Shown: one piece after another, positions 9,801-13,717 of the stretch | How the letters are laid out: each line of letters opens with the position of its first letter | How positions within the stretch are numbered: position 1 is the stretch's first letter | Assembly (NCBI GenBank): GCA_045810505.1 | Contig: JBJMVV010000340.1 | Span: 1-24,000 of the forward strand | Direction of reading: 5' to 3' | Length of the DNA stretch: 24,000 nt | Origin: Massilia sp. | GTDB lineage: Bacteria > Pseudomonadota > Gammaproteobacteria > Burkholderiales > Burkholderiaceae_D | Notes under the pieces: generated by a model | What the model was told of the DNA's origin: nothing | Databases searched by the model: none | Seen by the model: only the letters and a program-made list of their open reading frames with translations | Program-made: the position numbers and the translations under genes

Positions 9801-10415
9801 ATGGCCGCGCCCCCGGCATTCAATAGCCGCAATCCACTCGAGCCTGGCTTCTGGGACGAGCGCTTCGAGCGGGGTTTTACGCCCTGGGACCGGGGCGGCG
9901 TGCCGCAGGCGCTGCGCGATTTCGCGGCCGCATCAAGGCCCATGGTGACCCTGATCCCCGGCTGCGGTGCCGCCTACGAACTGGCCTACCTGTGCGAACA
10001 GGGCTGGGATGCCACGGCCATCGATTTCGCGCCGGCCGCAGTGGACAAGGCGAGGGCAGGCCTGTCGCAGTACGCCGATCGCGTCGTGCTGGCCGACTTT
10101 TTTGCCTGGCAAGCCGCTAGGCCCCTGCAACTGATTTATGAGCGCGCATTCCTGTGCGCTTTTCCGCGTGCGATGTGGCAGCAGGTGGCGGACCGCTACG
10201 CGGCCCTCCTGCCCGCCGGCGCCTTGCTGGCCGGATTCTTCTTTTTTGACGAGAACGAAAAAGGCCCGCCCTTCGGCATCACCACCGAGCGCCTCGATCA
10301 ATTGCTGTCACCCTATTTCGAGCGTATGGCCGATGCAGCCGTCAGCGATTCCATTCGCGTGTTTGAAGGCAAGGAACGCTGGCAGGTGTGGCGACGGCGT
10401 GCCGACAAGGCTTGA
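9801..10415 (+). CDS. TPMT-family SAM-dependent methyltransferase (thiopurine/thiol/halide methyltransferase-like)
   Basis: Motifs FWDERFERGFTPWD, LIPGCGAAYE, YERAFLCAFPRAMW and KGPPFGIT match my recollection of the TPMT family. The start is 3 nt after the ubiB stop. Confidence 0.7.
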   Translation: MAAPPAFNSRNPLEPGFWDERFERGFTPWDRGGVPQALRDFAAASRPMVTLIPGCGAAYELAYLCEQGWDATAIDFAPAAVDKARAGLSQYADRVVLADFFAWQAARPLQLIYERAFLCAFPRAMWQQVADRYAALLPAGALLAGFFFFDENEKGPPFGITTERLDQLLSPYFERMADAAVSDSIRVFEGKERWQVWRRRADKA

Positions 10416-10441
10416 CAAGCATGTGACATAAGTCGCACAAT
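10412..10441 (+). promoter_or_regulatory. Candidate sigma70 promoter of the blaI operon (TTGACA-N18-CACAAT)
   Basis: Perfect -35 TTGACA at 10412-10417, which overlaps the TPMT stop. -10-like CACAAT at 10436-10441. SD AGGAG at 10457-10461 lies 9 nt before the ATG at 10471. Confidence 0.4.
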
Positions 10442-10470
10442 GGTGTCTACCGTCACAGGAGCCCGCTGCC

Positions 10471-10854
10471 ATGTCCATTCCCTCGATTTCCGAACTGAGC
10501 CTGTTAAAAGCCCTGTGGCGCCAGCAGCCCCTGAGCGCCCGTGAAATTCACGACGCCGTCGTCGATGAAATGGGCTGGTCGTTTTCGTCCACCCGCAAGA
10601 CGCTCGAGCGCATGCTGGAGAAGGGCATGGTCAGCCAGCAGGTGCGCCACGGCGTGCAGGTCTACGAGGCGGTGGCCGAAAAAGTCGATACCCTGGCCGC
10701 CTTTGCCCACGACTTCGGCCGGCGCATCATGGAAATCGATACGCCTTTGCCCGTCACCATGTTCACCGGCAGCAAGCTGGTCGACAAGCAAGAACTGGCG
10801 CAACTGGAACAGTTGCTGCAGGATTGGCCGGAGGAAGACGGAGGCGCGCAATGA
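10471..10854 (+). CDS. blaI: BlaI/MecI/CopY-family winged-helix transcriptional repressor
   Basis: 127 aa with family-typical N-terminus ..ELSLLKALWRQQPLSAREIHDAV..WSFSSTRKTLERMLEKGMV... It is immediately followed by, and overlaps, an M56 sensor-protease gene. Confidence 0.8.
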   Translation: MSIPSISELSLLKALWRQQPLSAREIHDAVVDEMGWSFSSTRKTLERMLEKGMVSQQVRHGVQVYEAVAEKVDTLAAFAHDFGRRIMEIDTPLPVTMFTGSKLVDKQELAQLEQLLQDWPEEDGGAQ

Positions 10855-12677
10855 GCGGCCTCGACCTGTTCAGCATGCGCTTCGCTCTGGCCAGTTTCGC
10901 CTGCCTCGCTGCCGGACTGGGTGTGTGGCCGATTGCCATGCTGTGCCGCAAATACCTGCCCGCGCTGGCGCTGCAGCGCTCGGTGTGGCTGCTGGGCCAG
11001 TTGGCCATTGCCGCCACCTTTGTGTTTGCCTTGATGCCGCAGACGGAAACCCTGCGCGTCGTGCCCGCCATCGAGGTCAATGAGCAGGGAGAGATAGCGC
11101 CGCAGGAACCGGCCGGCGAGATCACCGAGAATGCAGCGCCGCCAGCGCCGGCCGCGGCGCCCGTGTCTGCCATCAACTGGCCCCTGCGCGCCGCCCAGGG
11201 CTGGCTCGGCATCTATCTGCTCGGTGCAGCAATTGCATTTGGCCGCTTGCTGCGCAGCCAGCACACCATTGCCCGCCTTGCTGGCGCCGGCTTGCCGCTG
11301 GCCACGCTGGCCCGGCATGAAGGCTTCGCCAGCATCGAGGCTGCACCGCCCGTGATCGAGGTCGACGCGCCCATTTCGCCGATGCTGTTCGGCATTGTGA
11401 AACCGCGCCTGTTGCTGCCCTTGCAGTTGCGCAGTTTCGATAGCACGCAGCAGCGCCTGATCATCGCGCACGAACTAACCCACTGGCGCCGCCACGACCT
11501 GCAATGGATGGGCGCGGCTGTCATCCTGCAAACCCTGTTCTGGTTTCATCCCCTCATGCGCGAATTGCGCCGGCACCTGTGCTGGGCCCAGGAACTGGCA
11601 TGCGATCGCGCCGTGCTGCATGGCCGCCCACCGGCCGAGCGCAAGGCATACGCCGCAGCCTTGTTGGCCCAGCTGAAAACCCAGTTGCGCCCAAGCGCGC
11701 CCGTGCTCGCCTTTGGTGGCGGCGGCTTGCACAGCCTGACCTCGCGCATTGCCCTGATCCGCGCCCCATTCACGGGCGCCCGTTCGACCCTGGCCCGCTG
11801 GGTGGCCGGCGCGGCGCTCGCGGGCGTGTTCCTCGTCAATCTTGCCTTGCAGCCTGCGCTGGCCTGGCGTGGTGCGCCGCCGCCGTTGCCAACACCGGCC
11901 ATTGGCGCCAGCCAGCCCATCGCTGCCGCCGACGGCACGCTCGACTGCACTCTCATCGTCGACGCCGCCAGCGGCAAGCAACTCGTCAGCGAAGGCGCCT
12001 GCGACACCCGCGTCACCCCCGCCTCGACTTTTAATATTGTCGTCAGCCTGATGGGCTTTGACAGCGGCATCCTGCGCGATGCCCACGCGCCCTTGCTGCA
12101 ATACAAGGCTGGCGGCGGCTTTGCCGACTGGAATCCGAAATGGCGCCGCGCCACCGACCCCACCAGCTGGATCGTCAACTCCAGCGCCTGGTATGCCCAG
12201 CAGGTCACGGCGAAACTGGGCGAGCAGCGCATGGCCGCCTACCTCGACAGTTTTGACTACGGCAACCGCGACGGCTCGGGCGATCCGGGCAAGCACAATG
12301 GCTTGAAAATGTCGTGGATCAGTTCTTCGATGCAAATTTCGCCAAGGGAGCAGGTCGCCTTCCTGCGCAAGGTGGCCCAGCGCGAACTGCCCATCTCGGC
12401 GCACGCCTACGAGGTGTCCGAGCAGATCCTGGCCGTGCCTGCCGGTGGCGGCTGGCAAGCCTACGGCAAGACGGGCACGGCGGCCCCGCGACTGATCGAT
12501 GGCAAGGTCGACCAGACCCACTCCTATGGCTGGTTCGTCGGCTGGGCCCGCAAGGACGGCCGCACCATCGTGTTCGCCCGTTTGCTGAAAGACCAGGACC
12601 GTCCCGGCAGCGCCGCCGGTCCCCGCCTCAAGCAAGCCTTCCTGCAAACCTTGCCTGCCCGTTTCGACGCCCTGTAA
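10851..12677 (+). CDS. blaR1: BlaR1/MecR1-like signal transducer: M56 zinc-peptidase membrane domain fused to a class-D beta-lactamase/PBP-like sensor domain (variant S-T-F-N motif)
   Basis: HELTHWRRHD plus downstream QELACD (M56 motifs). The C-terminal domain has PASTFN(IVVSLMGFDSG), FDYGN, SWISSSMQISPREQVAFL, YGKTGTA and GWFVGW, which are OXA/BlaR sensor landmarks. Start 10851 is chosen for the ATGA overlap with the blaI stop; the tracked 10824 lies inside blaI. Confidence 0.82.
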   Translation: MSGLDLFSMRFALASFACLAAGLGVWPIAMLCRKYLPALALQRSVWLLGQLAIAATFVFALMPQTETLRVVPAIEVNEQGEIAPQEPAGEITENAAPPAPAAAPVSAINWPLRAAQGWLGIYLLGAAIAFGRLLRSQHTIARLAGAGLPLATLARHEGFASIEAAPPVIEVDAPISPMLFGIVKPRLLLPLQLRSFDSTQQRLIIAHELTHWRRHDLQWMGAAVILQTLFWFHPLMRELRRHLCWAQELACDRAVLHGRPPAERKAYAAALLAQLKTQLRPSAPVLAFGGGGLHSLTSRIALIRAPFTGARSTLARWVAGAALAGVFLVNLALQPALAWRGAPPPLPTPAIGASQPIAAADGTLDCTLIVDAASGKQLVSEGACDTRVTPASTFNIVVSLMGFDSGILRDAHAPLLQYKAGGGFADWNPKWRRATDPTSWIVNSSAWYAQQVTAKLGEQRMAAYLDSFDYGNRDGSGDPGKHNGLKMSWISSSMQISPREQVAFLRKVAQRELPISAHAYEVSEQILAVPAGGGWQAYGKTGTAAPRLIDGKVDQTHSYGWFVGWARKDGRTIVFARLLKDQDRPGSAAGPRLKQAFLQTLPARFDAL

Positions 12678-12696: not shown

Positions 12697-13545
12697 ATGA
12701 ACCTGATCCACCGGGCGCTCGCCTGCGCCCTGCTGGCTGGCTGCGCCACGCCTGTACTTGCCGACAACTGGAACGCGCCCCAGGAACCGTTCGCCATTTA
12801 CGGCAACACGTACTATGTCGGACCACGCGGCGTCAGCGCCGTGTTGATCACCTCGCCAGCGGGCCACATCCTCATCGACGGCGGCAGCGTCGAGTCGCCC
12901 ACGCAGATCGCCGCCCATATCCGCCAACTGGGTTTCAAGGTCGAGGACGTCAAATACATCCTCAATTCCCACGAGCACCACGACCACGCGGGCGGCATTG
13001 CGGCCTTGCAGAAGATGTCGGGCGCCACCGTGATTGCCAGCGAGGCCGGCGCGCTGGTGCTGCGTAGCGGCAAACCCGGCAAAGCCGATCCCCAGTACTC
13101 GGAGGAGCCCCAGCCGATGGGGCCTGCGGCGAACGTGCGCGCCATTGTCGATGGCGGCGTCGTCACAGTTGGCAATGTCCGCGTCACCGCACACGCCACG
13201 CCGGGCCACACGCCGGGCGGGACCAGCTGGGCCTGGCAATCAAGCGAATCCGGCCGCGCCGCGAATATGGTCTACGCCGACAGCCTGAGCGCCTACGCCG
13301 AGCCACCGTTCCGCTACATGGGCAGCACCGCCAGGACGGACCTGGAGCATTCGATCGCCACGGTGGCCAGCCTGCCCTGCGACATCCTCATTTCCGCGCA
13401 TCCGGAGTTCAGTGACTTATGGGAGCGGAAGGCGAGGGCGGAGAAGGAAGGGCACGCGGGGTTTATTGATACGGCTGCCTGCAAGGCCTACGCTGACAAG
13501 GGCGCCAAACGTTTAAAACAATTGCTTGCAGAAGAGGCGAAGTAG
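12697..13545 (+). CDS. Subclass B3 metallo-beta-lactamase
   Basis: B3-typical NWNAPQEPFAIYGNTYYVGPRGVSAVLITSPAGHILIDGG. Zinc ligands are present: SHEHHDHAGG (H116/H118/D120/H121 equivalents), TPGHTPGG (H196) and ISAHPE (H263). N-terminal signal peptide. GGAG RBS. Starts 19 nt after the blaR1 stop. Confidence 0.85.
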   Translation: MNLIHRALACALLAGCATPVLADNWNAPQEPFAIYGNTYYVGPRGVSAVLITSPAGHILIDGGSVESPTQIAAHIRQLGFKVEDVKYILNSHEHHDHAGGIAALQKMSGATVIASEAGALVLRSGKPGKADPQYSEEPQPMGPAANVRAIVDGGVVTVGNVRVTAHATPGHTPGGTSWAWQSSESGRAANMVYADSLSAYAEPPFRYMGSTARTDLEHSIATVASLPCDILISAHPEFSDLWERKARAEKEGHAGFIDTAACKAYADKGAKRLKQLLAEEAK

Positions 13546-13550
13546 AAAAT

Positions 13551-13579
13551 GGGGACAGGCACCTCCGGCGCCAGTCCCC
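13551..13579. repeat. REP-like element, 'F' orientation
   Basis: GAAAAT-GGGGACAGGCACCTCCGGCGCCAGTCCCC, 5 nt after the MBL stop. Confidence 0.7.
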
Positions 13580-13613
13580 CCTGCTGCAAGCGTCACGGCG
13601 ACTCGATTAGCAG

Positions 13614-13641
13614 GGGGACTGGCGCCGAAGGTGCCTGTCCC
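13614..13641. repeat. REP-like element, 'R' orientation, followed by ATTTTT
   Basis: GATTAGCA-GGGGGACTGGCGCCGAAGGTGCCTGTCCC. This is the reverse complement of the 13551 copy, identical at 27 of 28 aligned positions. Confidence 0.7.
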
Positions 13642-13717
13642 ATTTTTCGCGTTTCGTCAAACGGCTTCCTTAACTGAACGGCATTACGGCTCCGCGGGGA
13701 TTTTTACCTGATTAATC

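What the first reader, a model, noticed from the sequence alone, without database searches (positions are those of the whole stretch)
12024..12035. BlaR1 sensor domain has S-T-F-N instead of the invariant S-x-x-K (no SxxK anywhere in the domain)
Codons TCG ACT TTT AAT (residues 392-395 counted from Met 10851) sit exactly where OXA enzymes and BlaR1/MecR1 sensors have S-T-F/Y-K. The context PASTFNIVVSLMGFDSG mirrors PASTFKIPNSLIALD. In that family the lysine is N-carboxylated and acts as the general base for serine acylation.

The other landmarks (YGN, the Trp of SWIS, KTG, WFVGW) are retained. The second motif reads S-S-A/S-A-W rather than S-x-V or S-x-N. I scanned the C-terminal domain and found no alternative S-x-x-K.

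AAT is one substitution away from AAA/AAG. The options are therefore a sequencing error or recent inactivating mutation, a sensor that binds ligand non-covalently or is acylated by another base, or a domain repurposed for a non-beta-lactam signal.
Basis: partly seen in the sequence, partly recalled or inferred. Interest (0 to 1): 0.65.

Follow-up and report, generated by a model that had tools for sequence, protein, structure and literature searches.

The report
BlaR1-type sensor lacking the catalytic lysine
A membrane antibiotic sensor next to a carbapenemase gene in soil bacteria (Oxalobacteraceae) has asparagine where penicillin-recognising proteins normally have an essential lysine; about 200 relatives share this, so it is a conserved natural variant and not an error, and it is probably a sensor built to hold the antibiotic without destroying it.

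Summary
Codons TCG ACT TTT AAT (12024-12035) encode S392-T-F-N395 in a 608-aa M56 protease + class D-fold protein (10851-12677). The whole protein contains no S-x-x-K.

It is not an error. All 120 database homologues (52-97% identical) and all 80 species loci from Oxalobacteraceae carry S-T-F-N, encoded by both AAT and AAC. The sensor domain is under purifying selection.

A second change co-occurs. The Ser that hydrogen-bonds the lysine carbamate in OXA-57 is Ala in 98% of the clade and Ser in 97% of related enzymes. The other active-site landmarks are invariant.

77 of 80 loci have beta-lactamase genes beside the sensor (B3 metallo, class C, class D, or fusions). The class D enzymes among them keep S-T-F/Y-K.

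A sister lineage of fused sensors keeps Lys and Ser but has Glu in place of the carbamate-binding Trp.

Engineered Lys-to-Ala/Asp OXA enzymes still acylate but cannot deacylate. The best reading is therefore a naturally deacylation-dead beta-lactam sensor. This is inferred, not shown.

Published surveys saw the family but did not comment on the substitution. Verdict: a new variant of a known kind, of moderate to high interest.

The parts
10412..10457 (+). Promoter and operator of the blaI-blaR1-bla operon. It comprises -35 TTGACA (10412-10417), the dyad TGTGAC-N4-GTCGCA (10422-10437), a -10-like CACAAT (10436-10441) that overlaps the dyad, and a further half-site GTCACA (10452-10457).
   Evidence: Sequence read. 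The same layout, TTGACA-N4-5-TGCGAC-N4-GTCGCA-TnAT plus a downstream CGTC[AG]C, is found upstream of blaI in 11 other loci. The assignment as a BlaI operator is an inference from position and dyad symmetry.
10471..10854 (+). blaI-like repressor gene (127 aa). Its stop overlaps the blaR1 start (ATGA).
   Evidence: Pfam Penicillinase_R, 67.9 bits. A BlaI homologue lies immediately upstream of the sensor gene in 57/80 related loci.
10851..12677 (+). blaR1-type sensor-transducer gene (608 aa): an M56 zinc protease/transmembrane module fused to a periplasmic class D-fold domain.
   Evidence: Pfam PF05569 + PF00905. The AlphaFold2 model aligns with the S. aureus BlaR1 cryo-EM structures 8exq/8exp over about 630 columns, though the global fit is poor (TM 0.32-0.37, rmsd about 20 A). 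Its C-terminal domain matches class D enzymes at TM 0.88-0.90.
11469..11483 (+). HELTH zinc-binding motif of the M56 protease (residues 207-211). The candidate third ligand, E248, is at 11592-11594.
   Evidence: H207, E208, H211 and E248 are invariant in the 40-sequence alignment A1.
11937..12674 (+). Sensor domain (residues 363-608), class D beta-lactamase fold.
   Evidence: NCBIfam bla_class_D_alt 303.5 bits (cut-off 280) against blaR1_generic 154.8 bits (cut-off 400). Best solved relatives are 6ni0 and OXA-57 (9hpt). dN/dS is 0.02-0.12 against close relatives.
12024..12035 (+). S392-T-F-N395: the S-x-x-K position with Asn in place of the carbamylated Lys.
   Evidence: N in 121/121 homologues and 80/80 loci; K in 118/118 related stand-alone enzymes.
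12180..12197 (+). Second motif and following residues, S444-S-A-W-Y-A449. A449 replaces the Ser that hydrogen-bonds the carbamate.
   Evidence: A449 is Ala in 98% of the clade and Ser in 97% of enzymes. In OXA-57 the equivalent S109 hydroxyl hydrogen-bonds the K56 carbamate with 100% occupancy in molecular dynamics (preprint 10.1101/2024.12.23.630153).
12258..12266 (+). Y470-G-N motif, retained.
12315..12317 (+). W489, the omega-loop Trp that binds the carbamate in enzymes. It is retained here.
   Evidence: 100% W in the clade. The Lys-keeping sister sensors have Glu at this position.
12468..12479 (+). K540-T-G-T543. KTG is retained. T543 is invariant in the clade but only 28% in enzymes.
12525..12527 (+). 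Y559, a clade-specific Tyr immediately before GWFVGW, where the beta5-beta6 loop ends. Its role is unknown.
   Evidence: 98% Y in the clade; no residue exceeds 14% in enzymes.
12697..13545 (+). Subclass B3 metallo-beta-lactamase gene (282 aa, MSI-1/SMB-1-like, HEHHDH motif). It starts 19 nt after blaR1, so it is the presumed regulated gene.
   Evidence: NCBIfam bla_subclass_B3 318.2 bits (cut-off 240); blaMSI-1_fam 358 bits. The short spacing is read.
13551..13648 (+). Long, near-perfect inverted repeat followed by a T-run just after the MBL stop codon. It is a likely operon terminator.
   Evidence: Read directly from the sequence. No tool was run on it.

Best explanation
The gene encodes a working BlaR1-type beta-lactam sensor-transducer whose periplasmic domain descends from a betaproteobacterial OXA-type class D beta-lactamase. 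That domain has been permanently stripped of the carbamylated-lysine machinery: Lys to Asn at 395, together with loss of the carbamate-holding Ser (Ala449).

Proposed mechanism:
- A beta-lactam enters the still-intact binding site (Ser392, Ser444, Lys540-Thr-Gly, oxyanion hole).
- It acylates Ser392, more slowly than in an enzyme. A proton relay other than the carbamate would be used, most plausibly Ser444/Lys540.
- With no carbamate to activate water, the acyl-sensor cannot deacylate.
- The occupied site changes the conformation of the M56 protease module, as in S. aureus BlaR1, where the ligand displaces extracellular loop EL1.
- BlaI is inactivated and the blaI-blaR1-B3 metallo-beta-lactamase operon is derepressed from the TGTGAC-N4-GTCGCA operator.

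Asn395 would thus hard-wire the 'decarboxylated' state that Gram-positive BlaR1 reaches only after acylation.

Shown here: the substitution, its clade-wide invariance, the co-substitution, purifying selection, the operon context and the phylogenetic nesting. Inferred: acylation, absence of turnover, signalling and induction.
For: Conservation
- N395 is invariant in 121/121 homologues down to 52% identity and in 80/80 species loci, written as both AAT and AAC.
- The sensor domain has dN/dS 0.02-0.12 against close relatives. In most loci it is at least as conserved as the M56 module.
- The rest of the catalytic apparatus is invariant: S392, S444, YGN, W489, KTG, GWxVGW. This argues that binding chemistry is retained.

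Coupled change
- Only two positions separate the clade cleanly from 118 Lys-bearing relatives: K to N395, and S to A449 (98% against 0-1%).
- In OXA-57, the closest solved enzyme, that Ser (S109) and the Trp (W149) are the hydrogen-bond partners of the K56 carbamate.

Context
- 77/80 loci have at least one beta-lactamase gene beside the sensor, drawn from three molecular classes plus fusions.
- 57/80 have blaI directly upstream.
- The adjacent class D enzymes keep S-T-F/Y-K. The operator dyad is conserved.

Phylogeny
- N-type sensors and the Lys-keeping fused sensors form one clade nested among stand-alone enzymes (38/40 bootstraps).
- The Lys-keeping lineage has instead lost the Trp (SE[LV]SPTL). 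Both fused lineages have therefore lost a different member of the carbamate triad.

Experimental precedent
- OXA-48 K73A, OXA-24/40 K84D, OXA-51 K83D and OXA-239 K82D are used as 'deacylation-deficient' variants, and the structures described show the carbapenem covalently bound to the catalytic Ser (PMC6783824).
- S. aureus BlaR1 gains its long-lived acyl state by decarboxylating K392 (PMC5957439).
- S. aureus BlaR1 signals by ligand displacement of EL1 (PMC9834060).
Against: - No biochemical or genetic data exist for any member. Acylation, lack of turnover and induction are all inferred.
- The engineered precedents are Ala and Asp, not Asn. They were acylated under crystallisation or long-incubation conditions, and acylation without the carbamate may be too slow for a physiological sensor.
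- If merely removing Lys were enough, Ala, Asp, Gln and others should also appear. The strict invariance of Asn implies a specific positive role that this model does not explain.
- W489, which in enzymes serves mainly to hold the carbamate, is still invariant. That is unexplained unless it pairs with the Asn carboxamide.
- 23/80 loci have no blaI within 5 kb.
- No atomic coordinates were available from the model, so the geometry around N395, A449, T543 and Y559 could not be examined.
Confidence: 0.5

Rival explanations
1. Reversible, non-covalent receptor. The domain binds beta-lactams in the conserved groove but is never acylated. Occupancy alone displaces the EL1-like loop and activates the protease, so the switch turns off when the drug is removed, for example by the co-expressed metallo-beta-lactamase.
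For: - The general base is gone.
- In S. aureus BlaR1 the proximal signal is steric displacement of EL1 from the binding groove (PMC9834060). In principle this needs occupancy, not a covalent bond.
- KTG and the groove residues needed for recognising the carboxylate are invariant.
- A reversible sensor would suit a periplasm in which a fast carbapenemase clears the inducer.
Against: - The nucleophile S392 and the proton-shuttle S444 are invariant across about 200 sequences at about 50% overall divergence. Non-covalent binding alone would be expected to tolerate Ala, Gly or Thr at these positions.
- Lys-less OXA variants do acylate.
- Non-covalent affinities of class D folds for beta-lactams are typically weak (general knowledge, not tested here).
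Confidence: 0.2
2. Repurposed ligand. The domain no longer senses beta-lactams but another periplasmic molecule, such as a cell-wall fragment, a hydrolysed beta-lactam or an unrelated metabolite. Alternatively it is only a structural cap, and the M56 module is triggered in some other way.
For: - The defining Lys is lost, and there are clade-specific residues of unknown role (Y559, T543).
- The sister Lys-keeping fused sensors lie upstream of a TonB-dependent receptor gene rather than a beta-lactamase in the two contigs where the neighbour could be typed. Sensors of this fused family can therefore be wired to other outputs.
- Loss of this Lys recurs in stand-alone class D-fold proteins of unknown function.
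Against: - 77/80 N-type loci are physically coupled to beta-lactamase genes. The class of those genes has been exchanged repeatedly while the sensor stayed. This is hard to explain unless the input is a beta-lactam or something tightly linked to beta-lactam stress.
- All beta-lactam-contacting motifs other than Lys and Ser are invariant.
Confidence: 0.12
3. Dead sensor. The domain is a decayed relic and the regulator is constitutive or non-functional.
For: A residue regarded as essential is missing. NCBIfam blaR1_generic is far below its cut-off.
Against: dN/dS is 0.02-0.12 in the sensor domain. The active-site residues and the HExxH...E motif are invariant. The sensor domain is generally at least as conserved as the M56 module. 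The clade is present in at least 80 species, with synteny to blaI and bla genes.
Confidence: 0.04
4. Sequencing error, or a recent strain-specific Lys-to-Asn lesion (AAA/AAG to AAT).
For: AAT is one substitution away from AAA or AAG.
Against: All 120 homologues and all 80 species loci have Asn, written with both AAT and AAC. The 97%-identical metagenomic relative (L081/L082) has the same residue.
Confidence: 0.01

Closest known systems
BlaR1/MecR1 beta-lactam sensor-transducers of Firmicutes (S. aureus BlaR1, B. licheniformis BlaR, MecR1)
   Same: The architecture is the same: an M56 zinc protease/transmembrane module with HExxH...E, followed by a C-terminal extracytoplasmic class D-fold domain. 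There is an adjacent BlaI-family repressor and an adjacent resistance gene. The full-length model aligns to 8exq/8exp, although the global fit is poor.
   Different: - The Firmicute sensors have S-x-x-K with an N-carboxylated Lys that decarboxylates after acylation. This protein has S-T-F-N.
- The sensor domain is only distantly related to theirs (PDB 1nrf E = 1e-18, against E = 1e-74 for an OXA-type enzyme).
- NCBIfam blaR1_generic scores 155 bits against a cut-off of 400.
- The host is Gram-negative, so the domain is periplasmic.
- The regulated genes include a B3 metallo-beta-lactamase.
Chromosomal betaproteobacterial class D beta-lactamases of the OXA-42/OXA-57/OXA-22 group (PDB 6ni0, 9hpt)
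   Same: They share 46-49% identity by structure-based alignment and the same fold (TM 0.88-0.90). The protein scores above the NCBIfam bla_class_D_alt cut-off. They share S-T-F, S-x-V, YGN, W, KTG and GWFVGW.
   Different: The enzymes are about 270-aa secreted proteins with a carbamylated Lys held by Ser109 and Trp149 (OXA-57 numbering). Here Lys is Asn, that Ser is Ala, and the domain is fused behind an M56 membrane protease.
Engineered 'deacylation-deficient' OXA variants (OXA-48 K73A, OXA-24/40 K84D, OXA-51 K83D, OXA-239 K82D, OXA-1 K70D)
   Same: They are class D folds lacking the carbamylated Lys that still form a covalent acyl-Ser adduct and hold it (PMC6783824; PDB 4mll listed). This is the functional state proposed here.
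   Different: Those are laboratory mutants carrying Ala or Asp. This is a natural, invariant Asn with a coupled Ser-to-Ala change, embedded in a signalling protein.
Lys-keeping M56-class D fused sensors of Oxalobacteraceae (P0270, P0272, P0274, P0277, P0280; WP_056159201.1 and others in the supplement of PMC9045261)
   Same: They have the same fused architecture, are 54% identical and colinear over both modules, and form the sister clade.
   Different: They keep S-T-F-K and the carbamate-binding Ser but have Glu instead of the omega-loop Trp, and Ile instead of Y559. The downstream gene is a TonB-dependent receptor in two contigs, not a beta-lactamase.

Membership tests
BlaR1/MecR1 sensor-transducer | N-terminal M56 zinc metalloprotease module with HExxH and a downstream Glu | tested here: met
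   PF05569, 118.8 bits (cut-off 31), residues 13-303. HELTH is at 207-211 and E248 is invariant.
BlaR1/MecR1 sensor-transducer | C-terminal extracytoplasmic class D-fold penicillin-binding domain after the last transmembrane helix | tested here: met
   PF00905, 150.8 bits. Foldseek TM is 0.88-0.90 to class D structures. Helix 311-338 is followed by a disordered linker and then the domain at 363-608.
BlaR1/MecR1 sensor-transducer | S-x-x-K active-site motif with the (carboxylatable) Lys | tested here: not met
   The motif is S392-T-F-N395, and there is no S-x-x-K anywhere in the protein.
BlaR1/MecR1 sensor-transducer | Cognate BlaI/MecI repressor gene adjacent | tested here: met
   PF03965, 67.9 bits, at 10471-10854, overlapping the sensor start. 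It is present in 57/80 related loci.
BlaR1/MecR1 sensor-transducer | A beta-lactam resistance gene in the same operon or locus | tested here: met
   A B3 MBL lies 19 nt downstream. 77/80 related loci carry a beta-lactamase gene.
BlaR1/MecR1 sensor-transducer | Curated sequence model (NCBIfam NF000326 blaR1_generic) | tested here: not met
   154.8 bits against a cut-off of 400.
BlaR1/MecR1 sensor-transducer | Beta-lactam-dependent acylation of the sensor Ser, BlaI cleavage and induction | not testable with these tools
   This needs biochemistry and genetics. No published data were found.
Class D (OXA) beta-lactamase | Curated sequence model (NCBIfam NF000270 bla_class_D_alt) | tested here: met
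   303.5 bits against a cut-off of 280, residues 366-603. This explains why public records name these 600-aa proteins 'class D beta-lactamase'.
Class D (OXA) beta-lactamase | Carbamylated Lys of S-x-x-K as the general base for acylation and deacylation | tested here: not met
   Asn395. It is Lys in 118/118 related enzymes.
Class D (OXA) beta-lactamase | Carbamate-stabilising partners (omega-loop Trp; Ser after S-x-V-W-Y in this subfamily) | tested here: inconclusive
   Trp489 is present and the Ser is replaced by Ala449. The roles are taken from the OXA-57 study.
Class D (OXA) beta-lactamase | S-x-V, YGN and K-T/S-G motifs | tested here: met
   S444-S-A (S-[V/T]-V in the clade), YGN 470-472 and KTG 540-542.
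Class D (OXA) beta-lactamase | Soluble secreted enzyme of about 250-300 aa with a signal peptide | tested here: not met
   The domain is the C-terminal third of a 608-aa membrane protein.

The most novel reading that the evidence does not exclude
These would be the first natural penicillin-recognising (S-x-x-K superfamily) receptors that sense beta-lactams without the motif lysine at all. The most novel form is a reversible, non-covalent switch in which invariant Asn395, paired with Trp489, positions the ligand rather than activating Ser392. The sensor would then be reset when the co-regulated carbapenemase clears the drug. This logic differs from the one-shot acylation of Gram-positive BlaR1.
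Probability: 0.2. Interest if true: 0.8.

Novelty: new variant of a known kind. Interest (0 to 1): 0.6.

Why it matters
**Challenge to a textbook rule.** The S-x-x-K lysine is treated as defining for penicillin-binding proteins, serine beta-lactamases and BlaR1/MecR1 sensors. Here a whole family-level clade of evidently functional, selected beta-lactamase regulators lacks it. This offers a natural experiment on what the lysine is needed for in sensing as opposed to hydrolysis.

**A view of how an enzyme becomes a sensor.** An OXA-type enzyme fused to an M56 protease gave two daughter lineages. Each then dismantled a different part of the carbamate triad: Lys and Ser in one, Trp in the other.

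**An annotation problem.** These 600-aa proteins pass the NCBIfam class D equivalog threshold and are named 'class D beta-lactamase' in public records. Resistome surveys may therefore count lysine-less sensors as OXA enzymes.

**Clinical relevance by proxy.** The sensors sit on inducible operons for B3 carbapenemases, class C enzymes, class D enzymes and bifunctional enzymes in soil Oxalobacteraceae. This group has been proposed as a source of bifunctional beta-lactamases. Knowing how induction works would matter if such cassettes were mobilised.

Tried and rejected
- **Sequencing error or strain-specific lesion.** Rejected.
- **A relocated lysine or other substitute base in the sensor domain.** I compared 121 clade members with 118 Lys-bearing relatives column by column. 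No clade-specific Lys, His, Glu or Asp appears. Only N395, A449, V398, V452, Y559 and T543 stand out. Y559 is a candidate of unknown role.
- **Using the AlphaFold2 model (mean pLDDT 70.5) to measure distances around N395.** The tool returns no coordinates, so this was not possible. The Foldseek search only confirmed the fold.
- **Looking for Lys-bearing fused relatives among the best 150 representatives at 50% clustering.** None appeared. They were found only through the supplementary alignment of PMC9045261 and a targeted search.
- **Literature.** No paper in the library pairs 'STFN' with this sensor family; the six that contain both 'STFN' and 'lactam' look unrelated by title and were not read. 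No paper discusses Lys-to-Asn in Oxalobacteraceae BlaR homologues. No data on inducibility in Janthinobacterium or Massilia were found.
- **Papers not held.** The OXA-1 K70 paper (PMC2756174) and June et al. (PMC3910802) are not in the library. The OXA-1 K70A/D/E Bocillin data are therefore not used as evidence.
- **dN/dS at larger distances.** At about 65% identity dS is about 0.6-1.1 and the ratios (0.27-0.42) are uninformative.
- **First bootstrap run.** It timed out and was redone with a lighter method.
- **A second genome-contig scan.** This was not possible, so I could not test whether N-type and K-type sensors coexist in one genome.
Full report
**1. What is at the coordinates**

Window 12024-12035 reads TCG ACT TTT AAT. 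These codons lie in a 608-codon ORF, 10851-12677 on the + strand.
- The product has a Pfam Peptidase_M56 domain (residues 13-303) and a Transpeptidase/penicillin-binding domain (379-595).
- Counted from Met 10851, the codons are S392-T-F-N395.
- A scan of the whole protein finds no S-x-x-K. HELTH (207-211), YGN (470-472), SW489I, KTG (540-542) and GWFVGW (560-565) are all present.

**2. The surroundings**

The gene is the middle member of a compact operon.
- A 127-aa Penicillinase_R (BlaI-type) repressor gene (10471-10854) overlaps its start in an ATGA.
- A subclass B3 metallo-beta-lactamase gene (12697-13545) starts 19 nt after its stop. It is MSI-1/SMB-1-like, has an HEHHDH motif, and scores 318 bits on NCBIfam bla_subclass_B3 against a cut-off of 240.
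- Upstream of blaI there is a TTGACA -35 box, the dyad TGTGAC-N4-GTCGCA overlapping a -10-like CACAAT, and a further GTCACA half-site (10412-10457).
- The same layout, with consensus TGCGAC-N4-GTCGCA, recurs upstream of blaI in 11 other loci. I read it as the BlaI operator; this is an inference.
- A long hairpin followed by a T-run comes after the MBL gene (read by eye).
- Two metagenomic contigs encoding a 97%-identical sensor show the same chromosomal neighbourhood: ubiB, TPMT, blaI, blaR1, MBL, a zinc-ribbon gene, DUF502 and aspS.

**3. Error, lesion or clade character?**

A search of 5.8 billion proteins gave 554 hits. The best 120 are 52-97% identical and, where named, come from Massilia, Duganella, Janthinobacterium and Rugamonas. 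All of them have M56 plus Transpeptidase domains.
- In a MAFFT alignment every one of the 121 sequences has S-T-F-N.
- A scan of one genome per species (GTDB) returned 396 relatives. The best 80, all but one named from Oxalobacteraceae or labelled only at a broader rank, all have S-T-F-N, written as AAT in some and AAC in others.
- Part of this set was retrieved through a pattern that does not include the Asn: the P-V-S-T-F-N loci can only have matched YGW[FY]VGWA.
- Against close relatives the sensor domain has dN/dS of 0.02 (97% relative) and 0.12 (L001). This is lower than for the M56 module.

Sequencing error and recent inactivation are excluded.

**4. Where the domain comes from**

The sensor domain is much closer to real class D enzymes than to Gram-positive BlaR1/MecR1 sensors.
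- NCBIfam bla_class_D_alt scores 303.5 bits (cut-off 280), and OXA-42/OXA-22-type models score 260-270 bits. blaR1_generic scores 154.8 bits (cut-off 400).
- The best solved relatives are the Burkholderia enzymes 6ni0 (E = 2e-74) and OXA-57 (9hpt). B. licheniformis BlaR (1nrf) scores 1e-18.
- An exhaustive HMMER search of 1.84 billion representatives collapsed the whole fused clade into one 50% cluster. Everything else in the best 150 was class D-like without an M56 module, mostly stand-alone proteins of about 250-300 aa.

**5. What else changed with the lysine**

I compared 121 clade members with 118 Lys-bearing relatives column by column.
- Two positions discriminate almost perfectly. K to N395 is 100% against 0%. 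S to A449 is 98% Ala in the clade against 97% Ser in the enzymes.
- Position 449 is the Ser of S-x-V-W-Y-S.
- In OXA-57 the carbamate on K56 is held by the hydroxyl of exactly this Ser (S109, 100% occupancy in molecular dynamics) and by the indole of W149 (preprint 10.1101/2024.12.23.630153).
- The clade has therefore lost the lysine together with one of its two carbamate partners.
- Everything else in the active site is invariant: S392, S444, YGN, W489, KTG and GWxVGW.
- T543 and Y559 are additional clade-specific invariant residues of unknown role.
- No clade-specific Lys, His or Glu that could act as a relocated base was found.
The clade consensus is the canonical S-[V/T]-V.

**6. Context across species**

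In 77 of the 80 species loci at least one beta-lactamase gene lies beside the sensor (for domain assignments). The class of that gene varies:

| Adjacent beta-lactamase gene(s) | Loci |
|---|---|
| Class C | 27 |
| Class D | 13 |
| B3 MBL plus class D | 11 |
| Class D plus class C, largely LRA-13-like fusions | 10 |
| B3 MBL alone | 5 |
| B3 MBL plus class C | 5 |
| Divergently transcribed upstream (class C, or class D plus class C) | 6 |

- The class D enzymes in these same loci all keep S-T-F/Y-K. This is a useful internal control.
- blaI is directly upstream in 57/80 loci. In the rest it is not within 5 kb; in L019, for example, an aldo-keto reductase gene precedes the sensor.
- The sensor module has stayed constant while its cargo was exchanged repeatedly. 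This is the strongest argument that it still responds to beta-lactams or to something inseparable from them.

**7. A sister lineage that keeps the lysine**

[quoted passage not shown] Its text does not mention the Lys-to-Asn change.
- Its supplementary alignment shows ten S-T-F-N sequences and four fused sequences with S-T-F-K.
- I retrieved database members of the latter type: P0270, P0272, P0274, P0277 and P0280.
- They have S-T-F-K and keep the Ser (VWYSQQ). Their omega loop reads SE[LV]SPTL, with Glu where the carbamate-binding Trp should be, and they have Ile instead of Y559.
- P0274 is 54% identical to the window protein, colinear through the M56 and sensor modules.
- In neighbour-joining trees with 40 bootstraps the N-type is monophyletic in 37, the K-type in 40, and the two together exclude stand-alone enzymes in 38.
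- The simplest history is one fusion of an OXA-type enzyme to an M56 module, followed by two lineages that each removed a different element of the Lys-Ser-Trp carbamate triad.
- In the two K-type contigs where the downstream gene could be typed it encodes a TonB-dependent receptor, not a beta-lactamase.

**8. How it most likely works**

Published work bears on the mechanism in three ways.
- OXA-48 K73A, OXA-24/40 K84D, OXA-51 K83D and OXA-239 K82D are used as 'deacylation-deficient' variants, and the structures described show the carbapenem covalently bound to the catalytic Ser (PMC6783824). Loss of the lysine in a class D fold blocks deacylation far more than acylation.
- S. aureus BlaR1 owes its long-lived acylated state to decarboxylation of K392 after acylation (PMC5957439).
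- S. aureus BlaR1 signals when the bound antibiotic displaces extracellular loop EL1 from the groove (PMC9834060).

Putting these together, my best explanation (confidence about 0.5) is that N395 and A449 hard-wire the carbamate-free state. The domain can still be acylated at Ser392, with Ser444/Lys540 as the likely proton relay, but it cannot hydrolyse the adduct. The occupied site then activates the M56 protease, BlaI is removed, and the operon is derepressed. All steps after 'the residues are changed and conserved' are inferred.

The main rival (about 0.2) is a reversible, non-covalent receptor. The invariance of the nucleophile Ser392 and of Ser444 argues against it but does not exclude it.

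A change of ligand (about 0.12) is disfavoured by the beta-lactamase linkage. A dead sensor (about 0.04) is disfavoured by purifying selection.

One observation remains unexplained by any of these. The replacement is always Asn and never Ala, Asp or Gln, and Trp489 is still invariant. This suggests that Asn has a positive structural or catalytic role, perhaps an Asn-Trp-Ser hydrogen-bond network.

**9. Comparison with what is known, and novelty**

By architecture, operon and fold the protein works like a BlaR1. It fails two formal membership tests for that family: the S-x-x-K lysine and the NCBIfam model. It passes the sequence-model test for class D beta-lactamases but lacks their catalytic lysine and is not a soluble enzyme.

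The family was seen before (PMC5967600; PMC9045261). I found no text that notes or interprets the lysine loss, the coupled Ser-to-Ala change, or the Trp-less sister lineage. I rate it a new variant of a known kind, with interest 0.6.

**10. Practical consequence**

Because these proteins exceed the NF000270 cut-off, several public records name the roughly 600-aa fused proteins 'class D beta-lactamase' (names listed). They should not be counted as OXA enzymes.

**11. Limits**

- No experiment exists for any member.
- No coordinates were available from the structure model.
- The trees are neighbour-joining on 255 columns.
- The BlaI operator is inferred.
- I could not test whether the two sensor types coexist in one genome.

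Noticed in passing
P0175, P0177, P0187, P0194, P0212, P0216, P0233, P0235, P0244, P0246, P0250 (also P0255, P0257, P0169, P0224, P0268, P0189): A set of stand-alone class D-like proteins (about 190-325 aa) carries C-[ST]-F-N at the S-x-x-K position. Cys replaces the nucleophilic Ser and Asn replaces the Lys. Others have CSFS, CDFS, STFD, ATFD, STFE or GTYE. Loss of the motif lysine therefore recurs in this fold, and a possible Cys-nucleophile subgroup exists. They did not form one clade in a rough NJ tree.
   Followed up: partly
L083:64-2927, L084:32-2887 (K-type sensors P0270, P0277); also P0272, P0274, P0280: A sister lineage of M56-class D fused sensors keeps S-T-F-K but has Glu in place of the omega-loop Trp (SE[LV]SPTL). 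It is followed by a TonB-dependent outer-membrane receptor gene instead of a beta-lactamase. P0279 looks like a secreted stand-alone version of the same Trp-less domain.
   Followed up: partly
L056:6738-8336, L080:6738-8330 (also L063, L067, L068, L073): In Massilia oculi, M. timonae, M. arenae and relatives, the gene after the sensor is a single 530-532-aa ORF. It joins an MSI-1-like B3 metallo-beta-lactamase (residues 1-286) to an OXA-50-like class D domain (S-T-F/Y-K). Both halves score above the NCBIfam equivalog cut-offs. This is an apparent MBL-OXA bifunctional fusion. In L062 the two are separate ORFs that overlap.
   Followed up: partly
L004, L006, L007, L009, L011, L017, L019, L023, L025 and 13 other full-length loci: 22 full-length loci, plus L001 whose short contig lacks the upstream region (23 of 80 in all), have no blaI homologue within 5 kb of the N-type sensor gene. 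In L019 an aldo-keto reductase gene and a LysR-type gene lie upstream. The repressor must be encoded elsewhere, or the output differs.
   Followed up: partly
window 12525-12527 (Y559) and 12477-12479 (T543): Two further residues are invariant in the N-type clade but not in enzymes. One is Tyr just before GWFVGW, at the end of the beta5-beta6 loop. The other is Thr right after KTG, the position whose backbone forms the oxyanion hole in OXA enzymes. Their roles are unexplained. Y559 is Ile in the K-type sister sensors.
   Followed up: no
window 13551-13648: An unusually long, near-perfect inverted repeat (arms of about 35 nt) is followed by TTTTT directly after the MBL stop codon. It could be a terminator or a REP-like element (read by eye).
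   Followed up: no
window 11055-11072 (residues 69-74 of the sensor-transducer): The first extracytoplasmic loop (about residues 62-109, low pLDDT) contains a short invariant patch, R69-x-x-P72-x-I74, followed by an acidic residue. It might be the counterpart of the EL1 segment that occupies the binding groove in S. aureus BlaR1. This is speculative.
   Followed up: no
P0281: This 273-aa metagenomic protein looks chimeric. Its N-terminal half resembles an ordinary secreted class D enzyme (with Trp). Its C-terminal 90 residues are nearly identical to K-type sensor P0270. It is probably an assembly artefact.
   Followed up: no
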